Below, in pieces: positions 28,922 to 64,000 of a stretch of DNA of 64,000 nucleotides. Location: the NCBI GenBank assembly GCA_016844955.1, contig JAERTH010000083.1, positions 15,712 through 79,711 on the forward strand, in the 5' to 3' direction. The DNA comes from Fidelibacterota bacterium (GTDB lineage Bacteria > Fidelibacterota > UBA8477 > JABMPR01). Under the pieces are notes generated by a model. It had not been told where the DNA came from. It searched no databases and saw nothing but the letters and a program-made list of their open reading frames with translations. Position 1 is the first letter of the stretch. The number at the start of each line of letters is the position of its first letter. The position numbers and the translations under genes are program-made.

Positions 28922-28929
28922 AAAGACAA

Positions 28930-35091: not shown

Positions 35092-36465
35092 ATGAAACGA
35101 ACAGCTCTAGTAATTAGCCTTTTAGTAGTAGCTCTGGTCCTGAGCACCACTGCCCAGACTATCAGCACCCAGGGTGTCCTCAGGGATAGTGATGGACATT
35201 CCGTAGAGGATGGTGACTATACCATGACCTTTTCCATCTACGGAGCTGAAACAGGTGGAACCCTCCTGTGGGGTCCAGGAACTCAAACCGTTACTGTAGA
35301 GAATGGCATCTATCATGTCGTTCTAGGTGAAGATTCACCCATAACCTCCTTTAATTCGGATGGTAGCAATTATTTGGAGATTTCTGTTGAAAATGAGACC
35401 ATGACACCGCGTCTGCGTCTGAATGTTTCACCTTACGAGCTATCTGAATTATCAGGGTCAAGTAATACCGTACCAGGGAGTGGCAATGTTGGTATCGGAA
35501 CCACCAATCCTCAAGCCAAGCTCAGTATTGTGGCTCCTGGTGACAATGTAGATTTGCTCCATTTTGATGAAAATTCAGATTCGGAAAAAGAATTTAGTTT
35601 CCAGGGGATGTTCAGCCCTGCTGGTGGTGCTAATGGTCTGAAGTTAAGATCGCAGTGGGTGGATAAGATCATGTTCTGGCGCGGAGATGGAAATGTCGGT
35701 ATTGGCACCCAGGATCCTGCCGCTAAGTTGCATGTTGAAGGAACGATATACTCCCCCAATCAATTCTCCACACGAACCACCAATATTGGTCAGTCCATGG
35801 AAAAGGGTACTTCGGCTCGAACAACCCTACGCTTTGACTCAGATAGCTATCGTATCTATGCCGGTGGTACAGGCGGTGTTGGCTCTGTTTTGACTGCTTT
35901 AGAGTCTGGAAAAGTTGGAATAGGTACTACTACTCCGGATCAGAAGTTGGTCGTTAATGGTGGCTCAGATGTAACCGTTTCAAGTGGTGCATACATCCAA
36001 ACAGGATTAACCAGCGGATCAAATATCGGGATTGATGACAACGAGATCATGGCACGTAACAATGGCTCAACCTCGACGCTGTATTTAAACACAGAGGGTG
36101 GAACCGTTAATGTCGGGGGGGATGCCCAATTCGAGTCCGAGATTGAGGTCCAGCATGGTAGCAGTTTTACCAAACCTTTTCAATTCGTACGCTACAGCGG
36201 AAGTGGTGAAAATTGTACTATTGCAACCACCTATAGCGAAGATGACTGGATTGCTGCTGTGGTTGGTTTTGATGCCGGATCTGGTGATATCGATGAAGGG
36301 GGAACTGAGGATCTGTGGCAGATAAATTGTGCTGTTGCCTCAGATGGCAATTGGGAAATCTTCTGTGATGCACCCACCCATAACAATTATCCAGATTGGC
36401 AAATATACGTAATGTTTGTCAGTACAAAACTTGGATCAGCCACCACTGGTTACAAATCTCACTGA
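35092..36465 (+). CDS. Tail-fibre-like secreted protein, paralogue 1 (cassette 1 small partner)
   Basis: The track ORF starts at TTG 35077, which contains the RBS GGAGGA, so ATG 35092 is preferred. Signal peptide present. Conserved N-domain 'QGVLRDSDGHSVEDGDYTMTFSIY..ETGGTLLW'. Three 'GNVGIGTxxPxxKL' repeats. Unique Cys-containing C-terminal globular region. No T9SS CTD. Confidence 0.65.
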   Translation: MKRTALVISLLVVALVLSTTAQTISTQGVLRDSDGHSVEDGDYTMTFSIYGAETGGTLLWGPGTQTVTVENGIYHVVLGEDSPITSFNSDGSNYLEISVENETMTPRLRLNVSPYELSELSGSSNTVPGSGNVGIGTTNPQAKLSIVAPGDNVDLLHFDENSDSEKEFSFQGMFSPAGGANGLKLRSQWVDKIMFWRGDGNVGIGTQDPAAKLHVEGTIYSPNQFSTRTTNIGQSMEKGTSARTTLRFDSDSYRIYAGGTGGVGSVLTALESGKVGIGTTTPDQKLVVNGGSDVTVSSGAYIQTGLTSGSNIGIDDNEIMARNNGSTSTLYLNTEGGTVNVGGDAQFESEIEVQHGSSFTKPFQFVRYSGSGENCTIATTYSEDDWIAAVVGFDAGSGDIDEGGTEDLWQINCAVASDGNWEIFCDAPTHNNYPDWQIYVMFVSTKLGSATTGYKSH

Positions 36466-36529: not shown

Positions 36530-39500
36530 ATGACGGATAAAATGAGATTAAAGAGCAAGGTTCTGCCTGGAGTGTTTACTACGATGATGTTTCTCGTGGT
36601 AGCATTAACCTGGGCACAGACCAGCTCTTCTGAATATCAGATTACTCAACACAGTGATGTCCATGGGGGACAGGCCGTGTTGACCAACACAATTAATAAT
36701 CCCGCAGGACCAGCCAGCATGACCATAACTGCTGGACAGGTTGTGGTCGGGAAAGCGGAGGCTCCCCACTTTTCAACAGATCTGGGATTGTGGAGTTTTT
36801 ACATCAAAGAACCTGATGCACCACTCGTGAATGCATCTGATGGAGAAAGTGAGCATCCCGCATACATCACCATATCGGCAGTTCAGGACGTTCTGAGTCC
36901 ACCTGCCACCGGTGAAATATCGGATGCCTCGGATTTTCCAGCTGGAAATTGGGTCCTGACCAGGGATGGTGTCTGGAAAGCCAACATCCCCGTTGAAGAC
37001 CCTGCGTTTAATGATGACCAGAGTATTTACCCCGGTCAGCTCTATAACTATGGAGTGACTGTGAGTAATAAATTTGGTGCCAGCCTGGAAGGCTTTGATG
37101 CTGGATTTACCCTGCCCAATGGTAAAATTGCCGGGCGGGTATTTACTCCAGGTCCAACTCCAGGGGCTCCCTGGAATCCAGCCGGAAATCCGGTGGCTGA
37201 TGTAGAAGTATCCCTGTCACCCATACGTGGAAAATCTGCCCGCCTGGATGGGGAGAATGATTTCATTGGGATAGATGGTGACTACGAGGTAGAAATCGAC
37301 CAATCCTATTCAGTAGAATTATGGATCAACATTGATGCAACTCCTCAGTTGAGCACAATCGCTGATTGGGGTGAGAGACTCCAGGTTTACCATGATAACA
37401 CAGACCTAACTGCAAATGTTGGAGGTGTTGAAGTAAGCGTTGCGTTACCATCACAACAGAATTGGCATCATCTGGCTTGCGTTCTGGATACCAACGAGAT
37501 CATCCTGTATCTGGATGGTGATTCGGTAAAATCAGCCGCTGTAGCTCTCATGCCTGAAAGCGCAGATCTCCGGTTTGGTAAGAACCGAACCCTGGGACAG
37601 TTTTTTGATGGCTGGCTGGATGATATCCGTGTCTGGAAAACTGCCCGCAGCAAAGATGAAATTTCTAAAAATAAGGATCGAGCGCTCTTTGGTGATGAGG
37701 CCGGACTCATTGGGTATTGGAAATTTGATGAAGGGGTGAATGATATCTCTTATGATGCAACAGCTCCCAGAGAGTTGGCATCGCTGGAAGGGGCCGTATG
37801 GAGCTCGGAGATACCTGCTGTACGCCTATCGGCGTTCACGGATGTTCATGGCTTTTACGAAATCAGAAATGTCTGGTATGATGCCTCTGATGACAATGGC
37901 ACGACCTACACGGTTACACCTTTCAAGAAAAATCACGATTTTTTCTCACCGAACAACTCAGAAGCAACCATCAGTCGCAACAGTCCTGAAGCGCCGGAAG
38001 TTAAATTTATCGATGAATCTTTATTCACGGTAAGTGGATACCTGGTTTATGATGGAACCAATTGTCCGGTTGTGCATGCCGAGATTCTGGCCGATTCAAT
38101 GAGTACTCGCCCAGAGACTTTCACCGATGCATATGGTAAGTTCACGCTTGATTTTGAGCCCAATGATGGTGCTGCATTAACCGTCCGATTTGGTGGCAAT
38201 TTTGTCTACGATACCACGACTTATGAGGGTTCTGATGATATCGATATAGACACATCCTATGTGGGAGCTCATACCTTCCACCTAGACGGTGTTGAGCAAA
38301 GCTATATTGTTGAAAACATCGAGGCAGATATTGCTGATGCCGATTTCATGGATGTTCATACGAAGTCCATCTTTTTGAATATTGGTGGTGGAACTTGCAT
38401 GTTTCCCATTGGTGATGCTTCAGTGGACCTCAGGGTAGCAGGGCAGGGAGAAGGGTTTTGTTATGAGGTAGATGACATCTCAGTAATTACGGGTGATGGA
38501 TACCAGGAGATCGATGGCTTACCACCCCTGTCCTACGAAATGATTGTGACACATACCAATCCGGATATTGAATTTGATCCAATGCAGTTGAGTCTTTACG
38601 ATTCAAGTCGGCATGTGGAATACATGTATAATTCAGACCTGCAGTTGACGTTTTCAGACTTCCCCTGGGGCGAAGACTGCGCTGTGATAGCTCAGCATGT
38701 AGCAGACAGTTTGAAAGCAACTGTATATGAGGAGTACGGTGGCTATGATGGTATTGATGCCAATCGATGTCCCATAAAAATCTTCGATGTTGAAATATTG
38801 GATGATTGGAGTGGAATTTATACCGAACGCGAACCTTTTGGATCAGATAATGGTGAGTTCTGGTACCATTTTCAGGCCGGAAATCCTAATATTCTGGGTG
38901 GGGGAGAACATCCCTATCAAAAACGCCTGCAAATTGTCGTCATCGATGAACTTGGACGCTATGCCTCGGATGATGTCTGGGCCATAATCGAAGGTCGCAC
39001 CGCTACTGACGGTACCGACTTCGCGTCCATGCCTGCCAGAACCTCTGAACTTCCTTTATTTGTCCTGCGTGACCCACCGGGAGATGAGAGTTACTCGTTC
39101 CTCTCAGAGGACCAAACTATCTGTAGAACCATTGGTCTGGAGATCGAGGATGAAGAGGCTGATGATAATTACACCACTGTGAGTCTGGGAGCGGATTTTG
39201 GCCTGGAGACTGGTGTTTCGTCGCCCTTTGGGAGTCTGTTGTGGTCCAGTGAGTTGGATGCCACGCTGGATTTCAATCCCACATGGGGTGGATACCAGAC
39301 AGATCTGTCACTGGAAGAAACAGAGGTGTGTATCACAACCTCAGAAATTTTTTCCACTGACGATGGAGGTCTGATTGTAGGGGGGGAGGGTGATGTGTAT
39401 GTCGGCGCGACGCTCAACCTGACTTATAGTCGTATTATGGATTTATATGTTGAGGACTGTGAAGTGGTGATTGACACCAGTCATGGGATCAATGACATGG

Positions 39501-42500
39501 ATGGATTTCATTCCTTCTATGTATATTCCGATTATCACATTCGCTACACGCTGATTCCTGACCTTATTGAACTCAGGAACCATGCTGAGCCAGAGGACTC
39601 CACACGCTTTGACCAGTCTATTACGTACTGGACAACCCTGCTTGAAACCAATGAGGCTGCCAAGGCCAGTGCAGTCCCCACCAATGCTGAATCCAATTCG
39701 GGTGAAGCACTGACCAACATCTCCTTTGATGCGTTGGCCAATTATGAGTATTCAACCACCACAGACAGTGCTGTTACCAATCAGACTGCAGTTACCATAT
39801 CTACCTATGATGCATTTGGAATGGATATTGGAGTCACCTGGAGTGGGATCGGCGTAGTCGGTGGATTCAATGATACCGATACAGAAACCGAAACCAATGA
39901 TACAACGGATGTGGCGAGTTATAGTCGGACTGTTGGCTTTTTCCTCAGTGATGATGATCCAGGTGATGCCTTTACTGTGGATGTCAAACGTGATACAGTC
40001 TGGGGAATGCCCGTGTTTGATCTGGTGGCCGGTCAAACCTCCAACCCGTGGGAAGCTGGCACCTTCAAACGCCAATGGTGCTCCATCGATGTGGATCCCG
40101 CATCTTCATTGGATAATGAACCGGATGAGGATGCCATACTAAACCTGACCCTGGGTAATTTGAGTGAAACTGGCGAGACGTGGACCTATGCTCTTGCAGC
40201 CTGGAACGAAACCAATCCAGACGGAGCCATCATACGTGTTAACGGGACGCCCATCACTGGAACCGATCTTATTTTCGAGATCGAAGCCGGAACCAGCTCC
40301 ATGGCAACCCTGGTCATCGAACGTGGGCCGGAGGCCTACCATTACGAGGGGTTGACGCTTGAATTTGCACCGCCTGGTGAGGTGGAGATTGCCGATGCCC
40401 TGGGTCGTGATCCTCAGAATTCGGCCACCACTGAATTCGATGTCCATTTTATTGCTCCTTGTTCAGAAGTATCGCTCACAACCCCTGAAGCAGATGGCTG
40501 GGTCATCAATCAAGCCAATGCTGATTCAGCTGGATCAGATAGCCTGCAGATTGTGTTTGCAGGTTATGACCGCACTGATACCGAGCTGGAGGATATTGTC
40601 CTTGAATATTCACGTCTAAATGAAGAGACCTGGTTCAATGGGATCGTGTTGGAGGGGATTGATACGCTGGAACAGGATTTTTGGACCATGTACTGGAATA
40701 CTACTGGAGTGTCTGAAGGCACCTATATGATTCGCGCACATGCGGGTTGCCGATTACGAGATAGCTTTTCCGAAACACGCATCGGTATCATTGATCGAAC
40801 CTCGCCCCAGATTCTGGGGGTACCTGCTCCTGTTGACCATGTTCTGAATGGAAATGATCAGATCATTCTGGCCATGACTGAATCAATTGATTGTGAACAG
40901 GTTTATCCCAATACAGGTGAACTGTTTTTCGCCCATACGGGTGAGGCTATCGCTGCTGAGGTTACTTGTAATGACAATGAGATTATCATTACACCAGCAG
41001 CATCCGTCTCCAACAGGGAGATCGAGAATCAGTTGCTCAGAGCCCAGGTGCAGTTTGTAAGGGATATGGTTGGTAATCCATTGTGGGATGTCACAGGAGA
41101 GGTCCTGGATACAGTAGCCTGGGAGTTTACAGTCGATCGCAATCCATTGCATTGGAATGTACCTGCCCACGATCAGATCGCCTATCTGGGTGAGGAAACC
41201 ATCATTCCCATCACGTTGAATAATAATGGCGCTGATGCAGCTTACTTCGAATTTGGAAATCTATTCCCATTGCCGGAGTGGGTGGTTGCTGAACCAGCTT
41301 ATGGTGAGGTGAATTCAGGTGGCAGTATGACAGTCTATCTCACCCTGGATCCTTATTTGAATCTCGGGGAGTATGATGCCCGCATCTTTGCGGAAACCCC
41401 TCTGGGGGATGAACCTCTGGATTTGACGGTTCATGCCATTTGTCGGCCACCAGAGTGGACCGTTGATGCAAGTCAGTTTCAGCATAACATGACCATCACC
41501 AGCCAACTCAGCATTCAAGGTGACGCCTCAATCGATGTTTATGATCGTGTGGGTGCCTTTGTTGATGGTGAGTGTCGGGGAGTGGCAGATGTTGAACACC
41601 TGGAGTCCACTGATTCAGTTGGTGTGGATTCCCTGGGTAACGCCATCTACGAAACCACGCATTTCTACCGCACATTTCTCACTGCATATAGCCCGGAGCC
41701 AGTAGGCGAAACGTTGGAGTTCCGCATCTGGGATGCTTCGGACTGTGAAGAATTGTGGGAAATCCAGCAACCCATTCCCTTCATGGCCAATACCATACAG
41801 GGTAGCCTGGATGATCCCTTCGTGTTGAATGCATCGGGGGCCATCGCCCAGCATATCGATCTATCGCAGGGGTGGACCTGGTTCAGTTTCAATCTCCAAT
41901 ATGGAGAGATGAACTTCAATGATGTCTTTGAGTTGTTAGGAGCATCAACCGGTGATCGCATTATCGCTGCTGATACATCGGCCTATGCCCAGTACTCTGA
42001 GAGCACTGGATGGGTTGGTCCACTCACCAGTCTGCCTGTCACCAATGTGGATATGTATCAGGCCGACATGCTGGAAGCAGCCAGCTTCCCCTTTGTGGGT
42101 TTTGTCATTGATCCGGATATCACCTCTATTGAGATGGAATCAGGTTGGAATCGCATCAGCTACACCCCCCAGGTGAATATGGAAACAGTTGAAGCCCTGT
42201 CAGGGATAACTCCATCCCCCGAGGACCAGATCAAGAGCCAGTACGGCTTCGCACAGTATGATGCCACCTATGGCTGGTATGGATCATTGGACTATCTGGA
42301 ACCAGGTGTGGGTTACATGATGCATCTGGCCCAGGCCGATACGCTGATCTATCCATCTGGAGTTGGCAGGTCCTCAGATCCTCTTTATGAAGAGGATCTA
42401 CCTGAGCAAGAACTGCGAGTTGATTGTCCCTGGACTGTCGATGAGAATCACTACCTGGACAATATGACTATCACAGCTCTATTGGAAAGTGATACACTGG

Positions 42501-43103: not shown

Positions 43104-43130
43104 CAGGGGTCGAATAACTTTCGGCCCCTG
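43104..43130 (+). terminator. Hairpin after giant gene 1 (terminator-like, no T-run)
   Basis: CAGGGGTCGA-ataactt-TCGGCCCCTG (10-bp stem, 1 G-U pair). The core GGGGTCGA...TCGGCCCC is shared with the hairpin after giant gene 2. Confidence 0.4.
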
Positions 43131-44685: not shown

Positions 44686-44718
44686 CAGGGGCCAACATAA
44701 CAGCCCCTGTTTGTATTT
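44686..44718 (+). terminator. Rho-independent terminator
   Basis: CAGGGGC-caacataaca-GCCCCTG followed by TTTGTATTT. Confidence 0.6.
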
Positions 44719-47331: not shown

Positions 47332-47779
47332 TGGTTATCTCCTGTTTGGGATTCACACCATGTGAATCAGGTATAAATCTAAACATATGGCAGGCAAGCT
47401 GTGTGACTTGAATCATGATAGAAATAGTGTTGTATAGAATATGAACCAAATTGCACCACTACCCGGCTTTGGAAAATTCCTCGTTGTTCCGAAAAGTATA
47501 CACTTATGTCATTTTTTCAGACGAGTCTAATCATTATGTAGATTTTTAGCGCTCATTATTCATTATCCTGGTTCCCAAACAACTGGATCAAGACGATTTA
47601 TTGTCCATCAATGCAATTGGGTATCATTTGTAAATAGAGTAGAAATAGCGAACTACAAAAATGATAAATTGTATCACCAAATAGATATAAATAACAAACA
47701 CTTAGATAGTCTTGTTGGGCACAATCTTTGACCTATATTGTATGAAATAATGACAATTAGCAATTAAAGGGGAAAGTGC

Positions 47780-55718: not shown

Positions 55719-55757
55719 TTACAAGCACTAGATCCCTACAATTAGTAGATGTAAAAA

Positions 55758-55795
55758 GCGGGGTCGATTAACCATCGGCCCCGCTTCGTTCTATT
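55758..55795 (+). terminator. Terminator hairpin after giant gene 2
   Basis: GCGGGGTCGA-ttaacca-TCGGCCCCGC (10-bp stem, 1 G-U pair) followed by TTCGTTCTATT. Confidence 0.55.
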
Positions 55796-56388
55796 AAATC
55801 ATAATACCATAGCGGTGGCTGAGCCCGTCCTTAATAGAAAAAGCTGGCTACATACCACATCTCACCCTCGCTTTCCGACCCCTTCACCTGTGTCTACAAA
55901 CCCTGACAGATAAGTCATTTTATTCTGACAAATGTTTCCTTTGATTTAAACCAACCTAAATCAAACCAGAAAATATCTATGCTATAATCACTGATTACCC
56001 AATCAGGAATGGGTCAGGCTCAATATCCTGAAATTATAATATGAATATAAATAAGGAGATAAAAAGATGATCAATATTATCTCCATAAAGATAATAAAAA
56101 TAATGTCGTAGCAGATCATTTTAGGTTCAGTATTTGCATGGTATCGCGTAAGTATCAACTATTGACATATACTAAGGAATTGGAATTGGGCGATGAGACA
56201 TGGCGCTTAATGTCTTATCCCATTATGAATTGATCACCTGAAGTGGAGGCTTCATTTGAAGCCAAAAGATGGGTATGAGCTAAAGCGTCTATACGGCAAG
56301 AGCCAATCTGATAAATCCATCTGCCATTAGTTCCAGCGGGGATGAAACAAGAACTTACGAAAAAAATACCATCATAAGGGAGTTTGTC

Positions 56389-58659
56389 ATGAAACGATTA
56401 GCAAGTATTGTGTTCCTAACTGTAATTATTACTCAGATACTCAGTGCGCAAAGCATTACTGTACAGGGAGTTTTGCGTGATCCAGCAGGTCGGACTGTTG
56501 TTGATGGTAGCCATATGGTCATCTTTCGGCTCTATGATGCAGAAAGCGGTGGCACTGAACTCTGGTCAGAACATCATGGATCCGTCTTAACCACACACGG
56601 TGTATTCGCCGCAAACCTGGGCCAGACAAACTCACTGGCGTCTCTAAGTTTTACTGATAACTATTGGTTGGGGATCCAGGTTGATGATGGCACCGAAATA
56701 TCTCAGCGTATGCAATTGCAAAGCGCACCAAACGCAACTGCTGTGACCGGTTCTGCCAATATTGTGCCTTCCACTGGTAATGTGGGTATTGGTACGCTTA
56801 ACCCCACGCGACAACTGGAAGTCAACGGTTCAGGTCTTCAGCGAATCAAAGTCGCCTCATCCAATGATCAAGCTGGAATCAGCTTTGAATCAGATGGTGC
56901 AGGAGAAGCAACCATCTTAAGTCCAAGTGGAACCGACGATATACGTTTTTACGTTGGCGAGGCTGATCGAGTGGCTGTTACCTCAAATGGAAGGGTTGGA
57001 ATAGGAACAACAGAACCTGTTGAAGCGCTCCATGTAGCGGGTGGTTCTTATTTTGAAGCAACCCTGCGTCTTATGAACGATGGTGGATATAATGAAATCG
57101 ACTTTAACAATACCGGCAACCTCCATATCAAATCCAAGGGAACTGACGACTCCAACCCACTGAGCATCTTAACTATGGAGCCAACTGGGAATGTTGGAGT
57201 AGGTACTGATACACCTTCAGAAAAACTGGATGTTGCTGGAAACCTCAAGATTTCCAACGGAGGTGTTTTACTTTTCGCAGATGGATCATCATTGGCCACC
57301 AGCTCATTGAGCGGTTCTGCGTCTGCTGTTGCGACTCCTGGCAATGCCCTGATAACTGCCGACTCAGATGAAGCTGGAGCGGGGGAAATTCAAATGAAAA
57401 CAGGAGTAAACACTCGGGCCGTCATCACTCATGAGGGGAATATGGGTATCAATGACTTGCTACCAGATGCAAAACTATCAATTGATGCTGATGCAGATGA
57501 ATCCCTGCTGAGTGTTCATTCCTCGCATGCATCAGATTCCAAAATCTTTGAGGTGGAGCAGGAAAACAGTGATGGAAAGGTCAGTGTAAGAACTGGATCA
57601 GGGGAAACCATCTCACAGCTTAGTGGGTTTGCCTCAACACCAACCTACTTCCAATCAAAGCTGGGTATTGGAACGGCCACACCTGGGAGTGAGCTCACCG
57701 TATCCGGTGGCAACCTGTATATGGATAATCTTGGCCATGGAGGCTCCGCCACTATTGATGTGGCCATAGGAGATGGTGACACTGGTTTTAGATCATCAGG
57801 TGATGGTGAATTGCTCGCTGTTTCCAATGGAACTGATATCATGAGTTTCAGGAATCAATCCGTGGGAATCGGCGTGGCAATACCCACCACCGTTCTGGAT
57901 GTACGCGGCAATTTTCGGATTGATCGCGATGCCACTTACGATGTTTGGCTTCAGGGTGGGGGTGATGCATCTGGAAATGGTCGGAATTTAGCCCTGCTTG
58001 GAGAGAAGGCTTCGGATAGGTTAATTCTTAATCATGCTGGAGAGTATACAGGGGGAACACGATTCGATGGAACGGTTAGTATCGGAAACAATGCCTCAGC
58101 AGCGCTGCTTGACGTGGGAACAGGTGCTCCTCATAATGGAAATGGTGGATTTAAGATTATGTCCACTGGAACATCAGCTGCTGGCCTGGCAGCCAATGTT
58201 GGCTATCGATCCGTGTATCTTTATGCCAGCACCACTGAAACCAAACTGGATGCTTACGATTATGAAACTGATACGCCTCTGGATGTAGGTATTGCCAGCA
58301 ATGGCGGCAACGTGGGTATTGGGACCTCAAATCCAGCTTCAAAATTAGATGTTGCTGGTAGAATCACTCGGCATGGACATGCAATGTCCGCTTCAGGTAC
58401 TGCAAGTCATGGTGATATCATTACCGTCCCTTGGGGAACACGAGATGATTGGAGCATATTTGTTTCAGTAAACTCTATGGGTATAGATGAAACGGGTAGT
58501 CTTGGCGACAATGCCATGATGATGATCAGGTGTTACACATCAGTTGCTGCAGTGGATAAATGGGAAGTACACGCCCAATATTTATATCGTATGAGTAGTG
58601 ACAATAGCAGTGGTGCATGGCACAGTGGCACCGCCAATTATATGTTGGTAGCCAAGTAG
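56389..58659 (+). CDS. Tail-fibre-like secreted protein, paralogue 3 (cassette 3 small partner, expanded repeat shaft)
   Basis: 756-aa ORF with a signal peptide. N-domain 'QGVLRDPAGRTVVDGSHMVIFRLYDAESGGTELW'. Seven GNVGIGT-type repeats (e.g. TGNVGIGTLNPTRQLEV, GGNVGIGTSNPASKLDV). Unique C-terminal domain. No CTD. Confidence 0.7.
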   Translation: MKRLASIVFLTVIITQILSAQSITVQGVLRDPAGRTVVDGSHMVIFRLYDAESGGTELWSEHHGSVLTTHGVFAANLGQTNSLASLSFTDNYWLGIQVDDGTEISQRMQLQSAPNATAVTGSANIVPSTGNVGIGTLNPTRQLEVNGSGLQRIKVASSNDQAGISFESDGAGEATILSPSGTDDIRFYVGEADRVAVTSNGRVGIGTTEPVEALHVAGGSYFEATLRLMNDGGYNEIDFNNTGNLHIKSKGTDDSNPLSILTMEPTGNVGVGTDTPSEKLDVAGNLKISNGGVLLFADGSSLATSSLSGSASAVATPGNALITADSDEAGAGEIQMKTGVNTRAVITHEGNMGINDLLPDAKLSIDADADESLLSVHSSHASDSKIFEVEQENSDGKVSVRTGSGETISQLSGFASTPTYFQSKLGIGTATPGSELTVSGGNLYMDNLGHGGSATIDVAIGDGDTGFRSSGDGELLAVSNGTDIMSFRNQSVGIGVAIPTTVLDVRGNFRIDRDATYDVWLQGGGDASGNGRNLALLGEKASDRLILNHAGEYTGGTRFDGTVSIGNNASAALLDVGTGAPHNGNGGFKIMSTGTSAAGLAANVGYRSVYLYASTTETKLDAYDYETDTPLDVGIASNGGNVGIGTSNPASKLDVAGRITRHGHAMSASGTASHGDIITVPWGTRDDWSIFVSVNSMGIDETGSLGDNAMMMIRCYTSVAAVDKWEVHAQYLYRMSSDNSSGAWHSGTANYMLVAK

Positions 58660-58718: not shown

Positions 58719-61700
58719 ATGAAATCTTTCCATCAATATCTGCTATCAGCAGTCCTCATTGTCCTGCCCCTGGCGCTGTGGCCCCAATATGAATGCCAGC
58801 CAGAATGGTCCGTGGATAACTTTAACAGCTCTCTGGGTTTTGCTGAGGGTCAATCCACCAGCAACAACTCAAGTTTCAGCGTGGTCTACTCCGCTGTGGG
58901 TGCCACTGACCTCTATCTTAGCGAAACCAGTCCCAGCTGGGGCTTTTACTCCTATTATCAAACAGAACCCATCCCGCCCCGGGTCAATGCCTCTGATGGT
59001 GATCATGATGACCGCATCGAAATCACCTGGGAAATCACAGATGATGACCAGGGACCCCCAGTCACCGGGGAATTGGCCAAGCTCTTTCGCAATGGCAATC
59101 TTCTGACCACTATCCCCGTTGATCAAACTGCCTACCAGGACTACAATGTTTTTCCCGGTGAGTTTTATGAGTATGAAGTCGTGGTGGAAAATGACTACGG
59201 AGAGAGCTATACAGAGGGCGATGTAGGCTTTTTGAATCCCAACGGTTTAATCCTCGGGAAAATCAAAACTCCCAACCTGGTTCCTGTGCCCAATGTTGAG
59301 GTTAGGCTCACTCCCAACCTGGGCCGTGCCCTTGAATTCGACGGTTTGTCTGATTTTGTAGTGTTTGATACACTGACCGTTCTACCTGTTGATAGCCAAT
59401 ACACCATGGAGGGCTGGTTTAGAGCATTTCCCGATGCCCGGATTCAGACCTTTATCAGCTTAACTGATATTGGTACCCTATCTGGAGATTTGTATGTCTG
59501 GATTGGTCTGAATGCCGCCGGACAAGTCAGTTTTACCCACACAAAGATTGCCGGTTCTGAAAATCCTGCTGAATTGCATAGCCCTGAGTCTTTTAATGAC
59601 CTGGAATGGCATCATTGGGCTGCCACGCATTCAGGCAGTGAAATGATGCTTTATGTAGATGGTGACCTGGTGGCTAGTCAGGCCGAAAACAACCCTATCC
59701 TGAGTTTGGTGAACCTGGGTATGGGGAAATGGACACCTCAGGATGACTCAGGATATTTACACGGCCGTCTGGATGATATACGCTTCTGGAATATTGCACA
59801 AGATCGTGAAACCATCCGTTTGAACGACCAACGAACCATGAACGGTGAGGAAACCGGGTTGGTCGCGTATTGGAAATTTGACGAAGTTTTAGGTACCAAG
59901 ATTTTTGACCTCACAGACAATGATTATGACGGTGTTATCTGTAGTGTATCACGTACTGACCAGAAAGCGCCAGTCTGGGTAAGTGGGCTAAGCGATGAGG
60001 ATGGCAACTATGCCATAAAAGGCATTTATTATGGTGCCGGAACTACTTTTGACGTGACTCCCATCAAAGAGACACCCATCGGTCGCGCCCTGGAGTTTGA
60101 TGGTGAAGATGACTTCATCCAGTTTGACTTTAAACGTCTGGACTTTTCAGCTGGGTATACTGCGGAATGCTGGTTTAAGACAGCAGCCGGGTATGATATG
60201 ACGCTTTTTTGCGCAACGGATCCCGTGTCCGGCAGTGTCAAATCACAAATTCGTGTTCTCGGTGACGGTACAGTGTTGATTAGACACGGAGGTACTGGAG
60301 ATTATGTACTCAGTAGCACCGATGTATATCACGATGAAATGTGGCATCATGTAGCGGTTACCCATACCGGCGAAAATCTATCCCTCTACGTAGATGCAGA
60401 ACTTGTGGCAACTGCAACAAACACTGATCTCTATAATGAGGAAGTGGAGTATGTGATAGCTCGAGATACCCCTGATATTAGTAGTGGATATTATCAAGGT
60501 CGCCTCGATGAATTTCGAGTGTGGGACTATGGACGAATCGAGACTCAAATTTCCGGCACCATGCCCCAAACCCTGGTCGGTGATGAATCTGGACTTGTTG
60601 CCTACTGGAACCTGAACGAAGGTTCTGGAGATCTCATTGAAGATAAGAGTGGGCATTCCAATAGTGGCGTGCTGATGAACACCGTGGTTGATACCTGGGT
60701 GGAAGACATTCCACTCAATGAATATTTTACCCATATATTTGATGTTGAGAGCCGTCAAGCTATCCTGAATCCCAGCAATACGGCTGTTGATCGAGTAGAA
60801 TTTACCGATATCTCACAGATTGCCATTAGTGGTTTTGTTCGTTTTGAAGGCACTGACTGTTTTGCCGGTGGCGTTGAGATTCTGGTTGATGGCGAGTCAC
60901 AAATTCCACCCATTCTGACTGATGATGCAGGTAAATATATAGCCGAATTTGAACCCGGACGCACGGGTGCCATCCTAACTGCAGTGCTAGATGATCACTC
61001 CTTTATTCCGCCCTTTATTGAGCTACCAACCATTAATACCCCCATGACCGGGATCACCTTTTATGATCAGCAAAAGTTTGACCTGAGTGGAAAAGTGGTC
61101 GGTGGGAACTGTGAGTATCCGATTACTCCATCCCAGGGCCAGATTGAGGTAACCATTTCAAGTATCAGCGGTTGTATCGAAGTCATGACCGTCCCAGATG
61201 AAATTACAGGTGAATTCCTGGTTGAAGATCTGCCGCCACAAATCTACAACGTATCCATTGACCATCCAGATCCCGATATTGATGCATTTTTTACCGGAGA
61301 TACCGTATCCTTGAAAGCGGGTGATAATGGTCAGGACTTCATATATATGGCCAGTCCCAATGTTGTCATTAGCGGATTTCCAACCAATGCATGCGGGTTG
61401 CGGATTCAGGAGGAACTGGTTGATGTAACTGTGGACATTCAAGTCTTCGAAATATATGTAAATCGAGGAGACACCAACACGTGTCCTGTTGACTCAGGTA
61501 GTCTGCTTATTGTAGACAACATGGGTGATGCTGGAGAATCAGAACTAGCTTTTCAGAATGGTGCGGCTGCTTATACCATACCCGGTGGTGGGTATCCCAA
61601 CATTCTGGGTGGGGGAGAATATCCCTATCAAAAGAGCATCCAGGTGGTGGCCACAAATGCAGCAACTGATGAAAATGTCAGTGTTACAGAATGGGCTTAT

Positions 61701-64000
61701 GTCCTGGGTAATCGTCCACGTGAGACCGTATTTACTACCGCTACTCCTGAAATTCCACTCCTCATCCTCCGGGATCCACCTGGGGATGGCAGCTACTCTT
61801 ACCTCTCTCAAGAAACCTCATCATCCTATACATTTGGGATGGGTATCAATGTGGGAAGTGGTGTGGAATCCTTTGCTGCCGTGCATCTTGGCGCGGATGT
61901 TATCGTTTCAGCCGGTGCCTGGGGCATTCCAGATGTGGAAGTTGAAACCACCATGGATGTGACTGCTACCATGGGACTCAATGTGAGTGCGGGAGCTTAT
62001 GAAGAGCAAACCTGGTCTATTTCCACTTCAGAAACATTTCAAACCTCAGATGGAGATGCAATAGTAGGTTCGGGAGGTGATGTCTTCATCGGTGGAGCCA
62101 TGAATATCGCATATGGTGTAACTGATATTTTGGAAATTAATGAAGGCTGTGATCCTGTCATCACCCAGAATATAATTCTGGCTCCCAATGGATTTGAAAC
62201 GACCTATATCTATAGTGAAAATCATATCGTAGAATCTGTTATACCATCACTCTGGACCATTGCAGATACTGCATCGGCAGAGCTGTGGGAGCAGGTTATT
62301 CAACGCAATACAGAGTTGAAAGAGGCTGCCACTTTTGAGCATAACTACTCATTTGATGGTGCCGCCGGGACTTTTGAATTTTCAGAAACGGAAGAAGTTA
62401 CTTCCAGCCTGACCCTGGAATTTGAGATGGAAATCTATGGATCAGTAGCTGTAGAAGTCGGTGCTGAAGCCAATGGTGTGGGGGTCTCAGGTGGTGTCAT
62501 GGTTTCCTTTCAGACCTCAATGGGTGTCAGTGAAACTTCTGAGATTACCAACTCCAATACCGTCGGATATGTGCTGGCTGATGATGATCCAGGCGATTTC
62601 TTCAGCGTGGATGTCCTCTGGGATGGAGCGTATGGAACCCCTGTGTTCGCAACCGTGAGTGGAGCCAGTAGCTGCCCCTACGAACCGGATACTGCGCCTC
62701 GAGAAGGCGTTCAACTTTCTGCTGATGAAACCATTGCTATCAATGTACCCCCTGATGAACCTGCAGTATTCTCATTGCTGCTGGGGAATACCAGTCAGAC
62801 AGATGAATCAGGAGATTATGCCATTTCAATTCTGCAGGAAACCAATCCTCACGGTGCCGTATTTGCCGTGAATGGAATTCCCTTTGCTGATCAATTCCCA
62901 ATTTTTCTGGAAGCAGGAATGCAAACGCCAGTTACCCTGACCATCGAGCGTGGTCCTGAAGCATACGTTTATGAGGGGCTGGAAGTCCAACTCAGCTCTA
63001 TATGTGATGGAGACATTTCCGAATCCATCAGTTTTGCTGTGGAGTATTCCGTCCCTTGTAGTGAAGTGTCCATTGCCGTTCCTGAAGACAATTGGCTCAT
63101 CACAGGTGGTGATAGTGATAGCCTGTGGGTCACCCTCAGTGGATATGACAATACCGATGAGAATCTGACTCATATTGAACTACAATACCGACCTGTCCTG
63201 GATGTTTTGGTGAATGCCAGGGCTGGGGAGTATACTCAGCCGAATATAGGTCCGTACTATATTGAACCTGAGCTCGGGGATGTGTCATACTTCGAGAACC
63301 TCAGCAAGACACTACATTTTGATTCAAATCGTCATCATGAGGCTCTCGAAGGACGTCGATCCTATATAAATGAAGCAAGTGAGGCTTTTCAATCAGACAA
63401 TTCCACGCGGGAAAACGACTGGTTTATTGCAGCTACTATTCCCATAGACAGCCTGGTGGAGGACTATTATCTGATTCCCTGGAATGTGAGTCCTGATATC
63501 ATTCTGGATGGAACCTATGAAATCCGCGCATCAGCTGTCTGCGATGCTGGTCTGGTTCCAGGGCGGTCGGAGGTTTTGTCCGGTATCATTGATAGAACAG
63601 GACCCCTGGTTGTAGGTCTGCCCACACCGGTTGATGGAATTCTTGGTCCTGATGATCAGATCATTGTCACCTTGAATGAAAACATTGATTGTGAGAACAT
63701 CAATATAGGTGCTGGTGACATAATGTTGTTCAATACGGTAACGGGGAATCCGGTTGACTTTACCTATACTTGTGGTGGCAACCTCATTAGTATTGAACCC
63801 AATATTCAGAATCACTTTATAGAGAACCAAACCCTGAGGGCAGAGGTCCACAACCTGAGTGATGTCTATGGAAATGAACGTACAGCTCCAATTGAATGGG
63901 AATTCTATGTGAATCGCAATCCCATCGAATGGGTGGGTACCGATATTTCCAATATCGTCATTTACGAAGATGAAACCTTCGGGACCACCAGACAATTGGT
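58719..64000 (+). CDS. Giant LamG-containing protein, paralogue 3 (partial: >1760 aa, runs off right edge; two LamG modules)
   Basis: Absent from the ORF track because there is no stop codon within the window. ATG 58719 gives MKSFHQYLLSAVLIVLPLALWPQ (signal). I translated segments at 58719-59430, 60240-60302, 61560-61860 and 63960-64000 in this frame without stops. All + strand track ORFs in this region are in another frame. Motifs: 'PRVNASDGDHDDRIEITW', 'NGLILGKIKTP', LamG1 '...GRLDDIRFWNIAQ...AYWKFDE', LamG2 '...GRLDEFRVWDYG...AYWNLNEGSG', 'IPLLILRDPPGDGSYSY', 'IIDRTGPLVVGLPTPVD', 'YVNRNPIEW'. Confidence 0.8.
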   Translation, partial: MKSFHQYLLSAVLIVLPLALWPQYECQPEWSVDNFNSSLGFAEGQSTSNNSSFSVVYSAVGATDLYLSETSPSWGFYSYYQTEPIPPRVNASDGDHDDRIEITWEITDDDQGPPVTGELAKLFRNGNLLTTIPVDQTAYQDYNVFPGEFYEYEVVVENDYGESYTEGDVGFLNPNGLILGKIKTPNLVPVPNVEVRLTPNLGRALEFDGLSDFVVFDTLTVLPVDSQYTMEGWFRAFPDARIQTFISLTDIGTLSGDLYVWIGLNAAGQVSFTHTKIAGSENPAELHSPESFNDLEWHHWAATHSGSEMMLYVDGDLVASQAENNPILSLVNLGMGKWTPQDDSGYLHGRLDDIRFWNIAQDRETIRLNDQRTMNGEETGLVAYWKFDEVLGTKIFDLTDNDYDGVICSVSRTDQKAPVWVSGLSDEDGNYAIKGIYYGAGTTFDVTPIKETPIGRALEFDGEDDFIQFDFKRLDFSAGYTAECWFKTAAGYDMTLFCATDPVSGSVKSQIRVLGDGTVLIRHGGTGDYVLSSTDVYHDEMWHHVAVTHTGENLSLYVDAELVATATNTDLYNEEVEYVIARDTPDISSGYYQGRLDEFRVWDYGRIETQISGTMPQTLVGDESGLVAYWNLNEGSGDLIEDKSGHSNSGVLMNTVVDTWVEDIPLNEYFTHIFDVESRQAILNPSNTAVDRVEFTDISQIAISGFVRFEGTDCFAGGVEILVDGESQIPPILTDDAGKYIAEFEPGRTGAILTAVLDDHSFIPPFIELPTINTPMTGITFYDQQKFDLSGKVVGGNCEYPITPSQGQIEVTISSISGCIEVMTVPDEITGEFLVEDLPPQIYNVSIDHPDPDIDAFFTGDTVSLKAGDNGQDFIYMASPNVVISGFPTNACGLRIQEELVDVTVDIQVFEIYVNRGDTNTCPVDSGSLLIVDNMGDAGESELAFQNGAAAYTIPGGGYPNILGGGEYPYQKSIQVVATNAATDENVSVTEWAYVLGNRPRETVFTTATPEIPLLILRDPPGDGSYSYLSQETSSSYTFGMGINVGSGVESFAAVHLGADVIVSAGAWGIPDVEVETTMDVTATMGLNVSAGAYEEQTWSISTSETFQTSDGDAIVGSGGDVFIGGAMNIAYGVTDILEINEGCDPVITQNIILAPNGFETTYIYSENHIVESVIPSLWTIADTASAELWEQVIQRNTELKEAATFEHNYSFDGAAGTFEFSETEEVTSSLTLEFEMEIYGSVAVEVGAEANGVGVSGGVMVSFQTSMGVSETSEITNSNTVGYVLADDDPGDFFSVDVLWDGAYGTPVFATVSGASSCPYEPDTAPREGVQLSADETIAINVPPDEPAVFSLLLGNTSQTDESGDYAISILQETNPHGAVFAVNGIPFADQFPIFLEAGMQTPVTLTIERGPEAYVYEGLEVQLSSICDGDISESISFAVEYSVPCSEVSIAVPEDNWLITGGDSDSLWVTLSGYDNTDENLTHIELQYRPVLDVLVNARAGEYTQPNIGPYYIEPELGDVSYFENLSKTLHFDSNRHHEALEGRRSYINEASEAFQSDNSTRENDWFIAATIPIDSLVEDYYLIPWNVSPDIILDGTYEIRASAVCDAGLVPGRSEVLSGIIDRTGPLVVGLPTPVDGILGPDDQIIVTLNENIDCENINIGAGDIMLFNTVTGNPVDFTYTCGGNLISIEPNIQNHFIENQTLRAEVHNLSDVYGNERTAPIEWEFYVNRNPIEWVGTDISNIVIYEDETFGTTRQL

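What the first reader, a model, noticed from the sequence alone, without database searches (positions are those of the whole stretch)
35092..64000. Three tandem bicistronic 'tail-fibre-like protein + ~2,200-aa T9SS giant' cassettes: a candidate undescribed surface system
On the + strand, three times in succession, a 435-756-aa signal-peptide protein with phage-tail-fibre-like features is followed by a collinear paralogous giant secreted protein. The gap is only 55-64 nt and contains no hairpin. The pairs are 35092-36465 / 36530-43066, 47780-49087 / 49143-55718, and 56389-58659 / 58719->64000. Each giant has the same domain order: FN3-like, CarboxypepD_reg-like, LamG/ConA-like (x1, or x2 in copy 3), more beta-sandwiches, an unassigned ~480-aa 'RDPPGD' core, a Big_5-like Ig domain, two 'WTVD..CRG' modules flanking a GW-rich domain, and a T9SS CTD. 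The small partner never carries a CTD. Cassettes 1 and 2 each end in a hairpin, and every cassette is preceded by an unusually long noncoding spacer (388, 448 and 670 bp). I know of no described system with this obligate pairing. My inference is a modular, duplicating cell-surface recognition or attachment apparatus (particle, prey or cell contact), or a contact-dependent antagonism apparatus, in which a trimeric fibre and a T9SS-anchored giant act together.
Basis: partly seen in the sequence, partly recalled or inferred. Interest (0 to 1): 0.85.

Follow-up and report, generated by a model that had tools for sequence, protein, structure and literature searches.

The report
Tail-fibre plus giant-protein surface cassettes
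Three neighbouring gene sets each pair a phage-tail-fibre-like protein with a ~2,200-residue exported giant; the pairing recurs in many bacteria of the Bacteroidota-related (FCB) group, so the two very probably work together on the cell surface, but what they do has not been tested.

Summary
The window holds three fibre-plus-giant gene pairs on the + strand, with gaps of 64, 55 and 59 nt. The giants are collinear paralogues (~30% identity), and strong hairpins follow giants 1 and 2.

The pairing is conserved well beyond this window.
- A genome scan with the giant's unassigned core found at least 510 loci across FCB lineages.
- Among the best 80, 43 carry one to three fibre genes directly upstream of the giant.
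- An independent metagenome scan started from the fibre's N-terminal domain. Every strong hit with enough downstream DNA had a giant next to it.

"Obligate" and "bicistronic" are overstated.
- Short giants (1,360-1,735 aa) have no fibre. They lack the N-terminal module and the C-terminal 'WTVD..CRG' modules.
- Many cassettes have a third gene, a T9SS protein built from the same 'WTVD..CRG' module. Cassettes 1 and 3 here have it.

The fibres resemble Bdellovibrio MAT prey-recognition fibres, whose surface partner is unknown. They share the N-domain (weak hits), the shaft motif and swappable tips.

The giant's core belongs to about 1,900 unnamed protein clusters. Its fold is unassigned, with only faint hints of a β-barrel or pore-forming module.

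Best reading: a modular T9SS surface-recognition apparatus in which the giant carries the fibre. I found no published description.

The parts
34704..35091 (+). 388-nt non-coding spacer before cassette 1. The preceding MacB-type gene ends with a terminator-like hairpin at 34728-34759.
   Evidence: No motif is shared with the other two spacers.
35092..36465 (+). Fibre S1 (457 aa). It has a Sec signal peptide, a conserved N-domain (aa ~21-125, 35152-35466), GNVGIGTxxPxxxL shaft repeats and an unassigned tip without an S74 domain.
   Evidence: NCBIfam Bdello_MAT_N gives 25.5 bits, E 9.8e-6.
36530..43066 (+). Giant G1 (2,178 aa), a T9SS type-A cargo. It starts 64 nt after S1 and has its own SD-like site.
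36605..37009 (+). N-terminal module of G1 (aa ~26-160). Across genomes it co-occurs with an upstream fibre gene. It is the candidate fibre-docking region.
   Evidence: It is present in 43/43 giants with a fibre and absent in 8/9 without.
37289..37666 (+). LamG/ConA-like domain of G1 (Laminin_G_3, aa 254-379).
   Evidence: E 1.3e-18
38675..40879 (+). Unassigned ~735-aa core of G1 ('RDPPGD' ... 'DDDPGDAFTVDV' ... 'SSCPWE'). The sub-domain 39038-40054 is predicted to be 30-40-residue β-hairpins plus a helical hairpin.
41432..42754 (+). Two 'WTVD..CRG' modules (aa ~1635-1770 and ~1960-2075) flanking a region of four GW motifs. The same module builds the downstream third-gene products.
42812..43054 (+). 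T9SS type-A C-terminal sorting domain of G1 (aa 2095-2175).
   Evidence: Por_Secre_tail 26.5 bits, cut-off 27; TIGR04183 22.7 against 23
43104..43130 (+). G+C-rich hairpin after G1 (CAGGGGUCGAAUAACUUUCGGCCCCUG).
   Evidence: z -6.5
43329..44648 (+). Third gene of cassette 1 (439 aa). It has a signal peptide, one 'WTVD..CRG'-type module (aa ~5-130), Big_9/cadherin-like Ig and a T9SS CTD.
47332..47779 (+). 448-nt spacer before cassette 2.
47780..49087 (+). Fibre S2 (435 aa). It has the N-domain, shaft repeats and a Gp53-like_C tip (aa 359-435).
49143..55718 (+). Giant G2 (2,191 aa). It has LamG, CarboxypepD_reg-like, core, Big_5, 'CRG' modules and a CTD that passes the curated cut-offs.
   Evidence: The orthologous S2/G2-type pairs are L103, L105 and L107-109.
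55756..55786 (+). G+C-rich hairpin after G2 (GCGGGGUCGAUUAACCAUCGGCCCCGC). Its sequence resembles the hairpin after G1.
   Evidence: z -5.8
55719..56388 (+). 670-nt spacer before cassette 3. It has no Rfam match and only ORFs of 51 aa or less.
56389..58659 (+). Fibre S3 (756 aa). It has the N-domain, a long shaft with many VGIGTxxPxxxL repeats and an unassigned tip. It is 77% identical in the N-domain to the fibre of L003.
58719..64000 (+). Giant G3, cut by the window end. It has two LamG domains. The full length is 2,372 aa with a CTD on the near-identical contig L124. There a third gene made of 'WSVD..CRG' modules follows after 66 nt.

Best explanation
Each cassette encodes parts of one cell-surface recognition apparatus of a T9SS-bearing FCB bacterium. 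The window is most similar to Neomarinimicrobiota/Marinisomatota MAGs.

1. **The giant.** It is exported by Sec and then by the T9SS through its type-A C-terminal domain. It stays on the outer face of the outer membrane and projects a chain of β-sandwich, LamG and core domains.
2. **The fibre.** The small protein is a phage-type fibre, presumably trimeric, that has no T9SS signal of its own. Its conserved N-domain of about 120 residues docks on the N-terminal module of the giant. That module is the end farthest from the membrane anchor.
3. **The tip.** The fibre's interchangeable C-terminal tip is thereby presented outwards to bind a ligand on particles, prey or other cells.
4. **The third protein.** A T9SS protein made of the same 'WTVD..CRG' module as the giant's C-terminal part often joins the set.
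5. **Three cassettes.** Three diverged cassettes with three different tips would give three specificities.

**Shown here:** gene order and its conservation, the domain content, the co-occurrence of the giant's N-module with the fibre gene, and the similarity of the fibres to MAT fibres.

**Inferred:** physical docking, trimerisation, surface retention, and the nature of the ligand.
For: **Co-localisation starting from the giant**
- A scan of one genome per species with the core found at least 510 confirmed loci.
- Among the best 80, 43 have one to three fibre genes on the same strand directly upstream. The gap is mostly 6-270 nt.

**Co-localisation starting from the fibre**
- A metagenome scan with the N-domain alone found giants directly downstream in every strong hit that had at least ~3 kb of downstream DNA. 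That is about 22 loci.

**Order and co-inheritance**
- 62 loci show the order fibre N-domain, giant N-module, core. Cassette-2-type pairs and cassette-3-type pairs are each inherited as pairs.

**Co-occurrence of the giant's N-module with the fibre**
- The module (aa 26-160) is present in 43/43 giants with a fibre and in 1/9 without. Fisher p = 5e-7 on the first count of 41/2/1/8. This is not corrected for phylogeny.
- The C-terminal modules do not track the fibre in the same way. L017 and L076 have them without a fibre.

**Fibre architecture matches MAT fibres**
- MAT fibres have a signal peptide, a ~130-aa β-rich N-domain, the motif V-G-G/N-π-x-x-P-x-x-x-L and S74 or non-S74 tips (PMC10769870).
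- 43/54 fibres hit NCBIfam Bdello_MAT_N, best E 3.6e-9.
- 26/54 have Peptidase_S74, 3 have Collar and 1 has Gp53-like_C.
- That paper states that the surface partner of the MAT N-domain is unknown.

**The N-domain is cellular, not phage-derived**
- Phage genomes match only the shaft, from about aa 89-132 onward, never the N-domain.
- No relative of the N-domain was found in viral contigs.

**Secretion and expression signals**
- No fibre carries a CTD. The giants do.
- A PorV-like gene lies in the window.
- The intra-pair gaps lack strong hairpins and strong hairpins follow the giants. This fits co-transcription.
Against: - No direct evidence exists for a fibre-giant contact. Multimer modelling was not available.
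- Giants with the same core exist without fibres. These are the short class and proteins of 750-830 aa with only core plus CTD. So the core has a role that does not need a fibre, and that role is unknown.
- The core's long amphipathic β-hairpins and faint toxin or secretin similarities fit an oligomeric barrel better than a passive stalk.
- The similarity to the MAT N-domain is below NCBI's curated cut-off (at most ~25 bits here against 60).
- How a CTD-less fibre crosses the outer membrane is unexplained.
- Gene adjacency could reflect shared regulation only.
- The co-occurrence statistics are not phylogenetically independent.
- The fibre-first scan used a pattern (..QGVLRD) that is biased to relatives of this window.
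Confidence: 0.5

Rival explanations
1. Fibre-targeted killing device. The giant's core is a β-barrel pore-forming module, as in aerolysin or CEL-III. The LamG domains and the fibre supply target recognition. The complex, tethered or released by the T9SS, perforates prey or competitor cells on contact.
For: - The core sub-domain is predicted as 30-40-residue β-hairpins around a helical hairpin.
- The best PDB matches are barrel-forming protomers. Secretins come first (E 2e-6 to 1e-3), then epsilon toxin and Cry51 (E 0.05-0.5).
- Pfam CEL_III_C is hit by 6/52 family members (best 9.7e-5) and ETX_MTX2 by 2/52.
- The PDB 'Toxin' entries 7y78 and 7y79 are hit at E 0.02-0.05.
- CEL-III also combines lectin domains with a pore-forming domain (my own knowledge).
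- MAT fibres recognise prey in Bdellovibrio.
- Many carriers are Saprospiraceae, a family with predatory members according to the ixotrophy paper.
Against: - All similarities are weak. TM-scores are at most 0.17 and rmsd is about 20 Å.
- Family consensus sequences do not hit CEL_III_C.
- The family profile finds no toxin in the PDB at a significant E-value.
- Model confidence is moderate (pLDDT ~71). Long hairpins inflate 3Di matches.
- No immunity gene is evident.
- A pore module in the middle of a 2,200-aa protein is unusual.
Confidence: 0.2
2. Secretion or assembly dependence rather than a lasting complex. The fibre has no T9SS signal. It uses the neighbouring giant, or the third protein, as a carrier or chaperone to cross the outer membrane, and then acts alone.
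For: - Fibres never carry a CTD while both neighbours do.
- Gene coupling is tight.
- The T9SS translocon is reported to pass folded substrates (cited).
Against: - I know of no precedent for piggy-back export through the T9SS.
- A 2,200-aa carrier with lectin and core domains is far more than a carrier needs.
- Bdellovibrio MAT fibres reach the surface without a T9SS.
Confidence: 0.12
3. Independent adhesins that are merely co-regulated. Fibre, giant and third protein each bind something on their own. They sit together because they share a promoter and a sensor.
For: - Sensor kinases or hybrid two-component regulators lie directly upstream of the cassettes in about 29 loci.
- Every gene has its own SD-like site.
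- Giants and fibre-like proteins of other types occur separately.
Against: - Order, orientation and adjacency are kept across lineages as far apart as Neomarinimicrobiota, Ignavibacteriota, Gemmatimonadota and Bacteroidota.
- They are kept through cassette duplications with ~30% identity between copies.
- A specific giant module co-occurs with the fibre.
- Such conservation is typical of interacting products.
Confidence: 0.13
4. Prophage or tailocin remnant. The fibre genes are left-over phage tail-fibre genes, and the giants are unrelated neighbours.
For: - PHROGs tail-fibre hits, and S74, Collar and gp53-like tips.
- The shaft is similar to cyanophage and pelagiphage fibres.
Against: - No other phage gene lies in the window region or in the related loci.
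- The N-domain is absent from 50,697 phage genomes and from viral contigs.
- The fibres have Sec signal peptides.
- The synteny with giants is conserved in 62 loci.
Confidence: 0.02

Closest known systems
Bdellovibrio bacteriovorus MAT (mosaic adhesive trimer) fibres (Caulton et al. 2024, PMC10769870; NCBIfam NF053851)
   Same: - Both have a Sec signal peptide followed at once by a conserved β-rich N-domain of about 120-130 aa.
- Both have a shaft with the repeated motif V-G-G/N-π-x-x-P-x-x-x-L (here GNVGIGTxxPxxxL).
- Both have mosaic tips, either S74 chaperone-protease or non-S74 (collar, gp53-like, novel).
- Both occur as several paralogues per genome.
- 43/54 fibres give weak hits to the MAT N-domain model.
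   Different: - The hosts are a different phylum group (FCB, not Bdellovibrionota).
- Scores are far below the curated cut-off (at most ~25 bits in the window against 60).
- Here the fibre gene is fixed next to a T9SS giant. No partner is known for MATs.
- A role in predation is not established for these organisms.
Giant T9SS surface adhesins SprB (Flavobacterium johnsoniae) and GhpA grappling hook (Aureispira; bioRxiv 10.1101/2024.01.29.577165)
   Same: - They are very large Sec- and T9SS-exported, β-sandwich-rich surface proteins of FCB bacteria used for contact with surfaces or prey.
- Many carriers of the present cassette are Saprospiraceae/Lewinellaceae, the lineage in which the ixotrophy paper places these predators.
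   Different: - GhpA and SprB are ~5,900-6,500 aa chains of Ig-like repeats. GhpA has PorP/PorE-type genes downstream and no fibre partner.
- The giants here are ~2,200-2,400 aa and have a type-A CTD, LamG domains, a unique ~700-aa core and 'WTVD..CRG' modules.
- They are preceded by a fibre gene.
Phage tail fibres and tailspikes with an intramolecular S74 chaperone (endosialidase-type)
   Same: Shaft repeats and tip domains are homologous (PHROGs tail-fibre families, Peptidase_S74, Collar, Gp53-like_C). A conserved N-terminal adaptor with a variable distal tip is the same design logic.
   Different: - The N-terminal adaptor here is a cellular, signal-peptide-led domain absent from phage genomes.
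- There is no virion or tailocin context.
Lectin-linked β-pore-forming toxins (CEL-III, aerolysin/ETX-MTX2 family)
   Same: Lectin-type domains combine with a module predicted as long β-hairpins around a helical hairpin. There are faint sequence and fold hits.
   Different: - No hit reaches a curated or convincing threshold, and TM is at most 0.17.
- The module is embedded in a 2,200-aa T9SS cargo.
- Pore formation is untested.

Membership tests
MAT (mosaic adhesive trimer) fibre family - applies to S1-S3 | Conserved ~130-aa β-rich N-domain directly after the signal peptide (NCBIfam NF053851 Bdello_MAT_N, cut-off 60 bits) | tested here: inconclusive
   S1 scores 25.5 bits, S2 16.4 and S3 19.3. 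43/54 homologous fibres hit at E<=0.01, best 3.6e-9, and the window's three are far below the curated cut-off. The position (aa ~10-104) and length agree with the family.
MAT (mosaic adhesive trimer) fibre family - applies to S1-S3 | Shaft loops with consensus V-G-G/N-π-x-x-P-x-x-x-L | tested here: met
   GNVGIGTxxPxxxL(x)V is repeated in all three fibres.
MAT (mosaic adhesive trimer) fibre family - applies to S1-S3 | Mosaic C-terminal tips, either S74 chaperone-protease or non-S74 | tested here: met
   Across 54 fibres, Peptidase_S74 occurs in 26, Collar in 3 and Gp53-like_C in 1. The rest are unassigned. All three window fibres are non-S74.
MAT (mosaic adhesive trimer) fibre family - applies to S1-S3 | Trimeric fibre exposed on the cell surface | not testable with these tools
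   No multimer prediction or localisation data were available.
T9SS type-A cargo - applies to G1-G3 and to 43329-44648 | C-terminal type-A sorting domain (Pfam PF18962 / TIGR04183) | tested here: met
   - G2: 33.5 bits (cut-off 27) and 31.0 (cut-off 23).
- G1: 26.5 and 22.7, just below the cut-offs, at E 8e-6 and 7e-5.
- Full G3 on L124: FlgD_ig 32.5 and Por_Secre_tail 20.1. It is 37-43% identical to the other CTDs compared.
- 43329-44648: 25.3 bits.
T9SS type-A cargo - applies to G1-G3 and to 43329-44648 | N-terminal Sec signal peptide | tested here: met
   Read from the sequences: a charged N-terminus, a hydrophobic stretch and an A/G-Q site. No dedicated signal-peptide predictor was available.
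T9SS type-A cargo - applies to G1-G3 and to 43329-44648 | T9SS machinery in the same genome | tested here: inconclusive
   A PorV-like gene lies at 18773-19825, and at least 7 other CTD proteins are in the window. The core genes (SprA/Sov, PorKLMN) lie outside the window.
T9SS type-A cargo - applies to G1-G3 and to 43329-44648 | CTD cleavage and surface attachment or release | not testable with these tools
   This needs proteomics.
Aerolysin / CEL-III type β-pore-forming toxins - applies to the giant core | Significant match to a family model (CEL_III_C, ETX_MTX2, Aerolysin) | tested here: not met
   The window cores give no hit. 6/52 relatives hit CEL_III_C (best 9.7e-5) and 2/52 hit ETX_MTX2 (0.54). 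Family consensus sequences give none.
Aerolysin / CEL-III type β-pore-forming toxins - applies to the giant core | Superimposable fold | tested here: not met
   Epsilon toxin and Cry51 match at E 0.05-0.5 with TM ~0.1. Model pLDDT is 70.7.
Secretins - applies to the giant core | Secretin domain by sequence and by fold | tested here: not met
   Foldseek E is 2e-6 to 1e-3, but TM is 0.11-0.17 and rmsd about 20 Å. There is no Secretin Pfam hit.
SprB/GhpA-type T9SS filament adhesins | More than 5,000 aa of Ig-like repeats with PorP/PorE-type anchoring genes alongside | tested here: not met
   The giants are 2,178-2,372 aa. No neighbour of the window cassettes gave a PorP- or PorE-type Pfam hit. 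Among the related loci the recurrent flanking genes I scanned were sensor regulators and CTD proteins.
Prophage / tailocin tail-fibre locus | Other virion or tail genes adjacent, with the fibre N-terminus shared with phages | tested here: not met

The most novel reading that the evidence does not exclude
The cassette encodes a previously unrecognised, widespread FCB contact weapon or capture device. A MAT-like fibre selects the target cell. The T9SS giant it rides on then oligomerises through its ~700-aa hairpin-rich core into a β-barrel that perforates the target. The 'WTVD..CRG'-module protein acts as an accessory subunit. This would also identify, for the first time, the class of surface partner that holds MAT-type fibres.
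Probability: 0.15. Interest if true: 0.9.

Novelty: new variant of a known kind. Interest (0 to 1): 0.7.

Why it matters
**An open question becomes testable.** MAT-type fibres are known as prey-recognition adhesins in Bdellovibrio, and what holds them on the cell is explicitly unknown (PMC10769870). In FCB bacteria, similar fibres are genetically locked to a T9SS-exported giant. One specific giant module tracks the fibre. That gives a concrete candidate for the partner.

**A secretion problem is raised.** A protein without a T9SS signal appears to end up on the surface of a T9SS organism. How it gets there is unexplained.

**Large unannotated families get a context.**
- The giant core is found in about 1,900 protein clusters at 50% identity and in at least 510 genome loci.
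- The 'WTVD..CRG' module is a second family without a name.
- The carriers are ecologically important and mostly uncultured lineages: marine Marinisomatota/SAR406, Saprospiraceae of lakes and activated sludge, and Ignavibacteria.

If the apparatus mediates attachment to particles, algae or prey, it bears on carbon turnover and on microbial interactions in those habitats.

Tried and rejected
- **Word-index protein searches**. They returned only 10, 14 and 30 hits, mostly fragments, and made the families look rare. The exhaustive profile search and the genome scan showed they are common. The third search did not retrieve Bdellovibrio MATs, so no profile-profile comparison with them was possible.
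- **First genome scan with alignment A2**. It failed for lack of a conserved stretch. It was redone with a trimmed alignment.
- **Fold search of the 735-aa core model**. It returned only generic strings of Ig/MG domains (complement C5, α2-macroglobulin; TM at most 0.19). I rejected these as uninformative.
- **Fold search of the sub-domain against viral structures**. Nothing credible. The herpesvirus 'histidine-rich glycoprotein-like' hit has 2% identity and TM 0.19.
- **PDB sequence searches of the giant's N-terminal third, C-terminal modules and core**. There was nothing significant. The 'Cake' designer propellers are a spurious match to the GDVYVGG motif.
- **GhpA grappling hook as a relative of the giants**. 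Rejected, because size, repeats and neighbours all differ.
- **A shared regulatory motif in the three long upstream spacers**, including σ54 and Bacteroidota -7 motifs. None was found. The σ70-type scan is no better than shuffles.
- **Rfam**. No RNA family is present in the window.
- **Upstream 'sensor kinase' cluster**. It is heterogeneous (HTCS, TPR-HisKA_2, 7TMR-DISM), so it is not one conserved component.

Full report
**1. The observation**

The ORF map confirms three same-strand pairs:
- S1 35092-36465 and G1 36530-43066
- S2 47780-49087 and G2 49143-55718
- S3 56389-58659 and G3 58719 to the window end

The intra-pair gaps are 64, 55 and 59 nt. The upstream non-coding spacers are 388, 448 and 670 nt. 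All six genes have SD-like sites.

The giants are collinear paralogues at about 29-30% identity. Pfam gives Laminin_G_3 (twice in G3), weak CarboxypepD_reg, Big_5 and the T9SS sorting domain.

The small proteins share a ~120-residue domain directly after a signal peptide (36-40% identity). Next come GNVGIGTxxPxxxL repeats and then unrelated C-terminal tips. PHROGs calls the repeats tail fibre, and S2 ends in Gp53-like_C.

Strong G+C-rich hairpins of similar sequence follow G1 (43104-43130, z -6.5) and G2 (55756-55786, z -5.8). The short gaps inside the pairs fold weakly.

A Logan contig 99.99% identical to the window (L124) shows full-length G3. It is 2,372 aa and has the same C-terminal modules and a CTD.

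**2. Is the pairing more than local coincidence?**

*Starting from the giant.* I aligned the Pfam-free core and scanned one genome per bacterial species. The best 80 include:
- Neomarinimicrobiota/Fidelibacterota (up to 72% identity, the likely source group of the window)
- many Saprospiraceae/Lewinellaceae, including the cultured Phaeodactylibacter xiamenensis KD52 and Neolewinella aquimaris DSM 105137
- Ignavibacteria, Calditrichota, KSB1, Gemmatimonadaceae, Fibrobacterota, Chlorobiota and Balneolales

In 43 of the 80, one to three genes with the fibre N-domain lie on the same strand directly upstream of the giant. The gaps are mostly 6-270 nt. Most of the remaining loci simply lack upstream DNA.

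*Starting from the fibre.* A metagenome scan with only the N-domain gave 41 loci. Every strong hit with about 3 kb or more downstream (~22 loci) has a giant homologue next to it. Five weak half-domain hits from soil do not.

*Overall.* In all, 62 loci show the order fibre N-domain, giant N-module, core. Cassette-2-type (S2/G2) and cassette-3-type (S3/G3) pairs each have orthologous pairs elsewhere, so the pairs are inherited as units. Tandem cassettes also occur elsewhere (L012, L026, L101).

**3. Limits of "obligate" and "bicistronic"**

Giants of 1,360-1,735 aa have no fibre upstream despite ample flank (L029, L035, L037, L039, L046, L051, L053, L070). They align with G1 only over aa ~430-1535 plus the CTD. 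They therefore lack the N-terminal module with FN3 and LamG, and they lack the 'WTVD..CRG'/GW region.

Two long giants without a fibre (L017, L076) keep the C-terminal modules but lack the first ~140-160 residues.

Across loci, the giant's N-module (aa 26-160) is present in 43/43 fibre-associated giants and in 1/9 without a fibre. This points to that module, not the core, as the feature tied to the fibre.

Proteins of 750-830 aa with only core plus CTD also exist.

A third conserved gene emerged:
- Directly after the giant (0-220 nt), at least 25 loci encode a protein with one to five copies of the same 'WTVD..CRG' module. The length ranges from 232 to 2,143 aa, with Big_9, He_PIG or cadherin-like Ig domains and a T9SS CTD where I scanned it.
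- None follows the nine short giants with at least 1 kb of downstream DNA.
- In the window this gene is 43329-44648 after G1.
- After G3 it is a large gene called at 1,919 aa, seen on L124.
- Cassette 2 has none.

**4. What the fibres are**

Fifty-four fibres were scanned individually.
- Tips: 26 have Peptidase_S74, 3 have the phage tail Collar domain and 1 has Gp53-like_C. The rest are unassigned, and none has a CTD.
- N-domain: 43 hit NCBIfam NF053851, the N-terminal domain of Bdellovibrio mosaic adhesive trimer (MAT) fibres. The best E is 3.6e-9. In the window the scores are 16-25 bits against a cut-off of 60.

The MAT paper describes the same layout. It has a signal peptide, a conserved ~130-aa β-rich domain, the loop motif V-G-G/N-π-x-x-P-x-x-x-L, and S74 or non-S74 tips. 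[quoted passage not shown]

Phage genomes match the window fibres only from about residue 89-132 onward. These matches are shaft regions of cyanophage and pelagiphage fibres. A viral-contig scan found no relative of the N-domain.

So the fibres are chimeras. A cellular adaptor domain is joined to a phage-type shaft and tip. They are MAT-like in design and probably remotely homologous. I do not file them as members of the curated MAT family.

**5. What the giants are**

They are T9SS type-A cargo. G2 passes both curated CTD models, and G1 and G3 are marginal but clearly homologous. A PorV-like gene and many other CTD proteins lie in the window.

The ~700-aa core is a large unnamed family. The exhaustive profile search found 3,349 cluster representatives at E<=1e-3 and 1,868 at E<=1e-30. 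Sources call them "hypothetical" or name only the CTD.

AlphaFold2 models are of moderate confidence (pLDDT 73.5 and 70.7). They show very long β-hairpins around a helical hairpin, followed by Ig-like sandwiches.

Similarity searches gave only weak results:
- Foldseek's best PDB matches to the hairpin sub-domain are secretin protomers, followed by aerolysin-type toxins. All have TM of 0.17 or less.
- Pfam CEL_III_C is hit weakly by 6/52 relatives and ETX_MTX2 by 2/52.
- Family consensus sequences give only faint β-barrel families.
- PDB sequence searches are empty or spurious.

I treat the fold as unassigned. There is a weak, convergent hint of an oligomerising β-barrel module.

**6. Mechanism**

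The best-supported reading has four steps:
1. The giant is exported by Sec and the T9SS and is held at the outer membrane through its C-terminal end.
2. Its distal N-terminal module binds the fibre's N-domain.
3. The fibre's swappable tip, together with the LamG domains, provides ligand recognition.
4. The 'WTVD..CRG' protein is a frequent third subunit.

Conservation, co-inheritance and the module-fibre co-occurrence are shown. Docking, trimerisation, anchoring and the ligand are inferred.

The main rival is that the core is a pore-forming module and the whole is a fibre-targeted killing device. The other rivals are export dependence without a lasting complex, mere co-regulation, and a phage remnant. 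The data contradict the phage remnant.

**7. Comparison and novelty**

The closest known systems are:
- MAT fibres, which share the design and have no known partner
- giant T9SS adhesins such as SprB and GhpA, which use the same secretion route but have a different architecture and different neighbours
- phage S74 fibres, which share the shaft and tips
- lectin-linked β-pore-forming toxins, for which there are only faint hints

Five literature searches found no description of a fibre-T9SS-giant cassette. The library is open-access only, so this is absence of evidence.

I rate it a new variant of a known kind. It is a MAT-like surface fibre system coupled to T9SS cargo, and it contains two sizeable unnamed domain families.

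**8. Verdict**

Functional linkage is strongly supported. "Obligate" and "bicistronic" need correction, and the function is untested.
- Interest is 0.7.

Noticed in passing
window 43329-44648; L124 10128-12883; L003 14403-20630 and at least 25 other loci: A third conserved gene lies directly downstream of long giants. It encodes a T9SS-CTD protein (232-2,143 aa) with 1-5 copies of the same unnamed 'WTVD..CRG' module that occurs twice in the giants. It is absent after short giants and after G2.
   Followed up: yes
L010, L025, L040, L059, L066, L069, L093, L098 and others (about 29 loci), directly upstream of the fibre gene; also upstream of short giants L035, L039, L046, L070: Sensor regulators of several types sit next to the cassettes. 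The types are hybrid two-component systems with Reg_prop/Y_Y_Y and an AraC HTH, TPR-HisKA_2 kinases with LuxR- or LytTR-type response regulators, and 7TMR-DISM hybrids. This suggests signal-induced expression. None is adjacent to the window's cassettes.
   Followed up: partly
window 3670-26994: There is a laminarin-type polysaccharide utilisation cluster without SusD. It has a histidine kinase with a σ54 response regulator, an SSF transporter, a CBM9 protein, a TonB-dependent receptor, a 1,168-aa ORF with no Pfam hit, a PorV-like protein, three GH16 enzymes and a GH5+CBM6 enzyme. Most carry T9SS CTDs.
   Followed up: partly
window 43104-43130, 55756-55786 and 44686-44709 (- strand): The hairpins after G1 and G2 share the sequence GGGGUCGAnUAAC..UCGGCCCC. 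A related CAGGGGC...GCCCCUG hairpin lies between the convergent genes at about 44.7 kb. This may be a recurrent terminator or REP-like element.
   Followed up: no
window 44944-47331 (- strand): A 795-aa BNR/sortilin-like protein with a T9SS CTD lies between cassettes 1 and 2 on the opposite strand. It is not part of the conserved cassette in other loci.
   Followed up: partly
window 27099-34703: A VTC-domain and DUF4956 pair (polyphosphate-related) and a HlyD/ABC/MacB-FtsX efflux operon lie upstream. The operon ends in a terminator-like hairpin at 34728-34759, just before cassette 1.
   Followed up: no
P0014, P0017, P0018 (750-830 aa); P0063 (7,786 aa); P0128 (5,751 aa, 10 matched stretches): The giant core occurs in very different contexts. 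These range from minimal core-plus-CTD proteins to proteins of more than 5,000 aa. One has ten partial matches to the C-terminal half of the core profile.
   Followed up: no
L016, L020, L024, L045 (Saprospiraceae/Haliscomenobacteraceae): Two or three tandem fibre paralogues of about 400 aa precede a single giant. All end in a conserved '...ESYGISNIEIWVR' tip that has no Pfam assignment.
   Followed up: no
L032 3493-5277 (- strand): Near a short giant lies a 594-aa protein that starts '...FKYQAVVRDAGN...'. This looks like a different fibre N-terminal type common in Bacteroidota. It was not detected by the N-domain search.
   Followed up: no
L004 (labelled Lentisphaeria), P0186 (labelled Betaproteobacteria), P0016 (labelled Deltaproteobacteria): A few homologues carry non-FCB taxonomic labels in MAG records. 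These are probably binning errors rather than real occurrences outside T9SS-bearing lineages.
   Followed up: no
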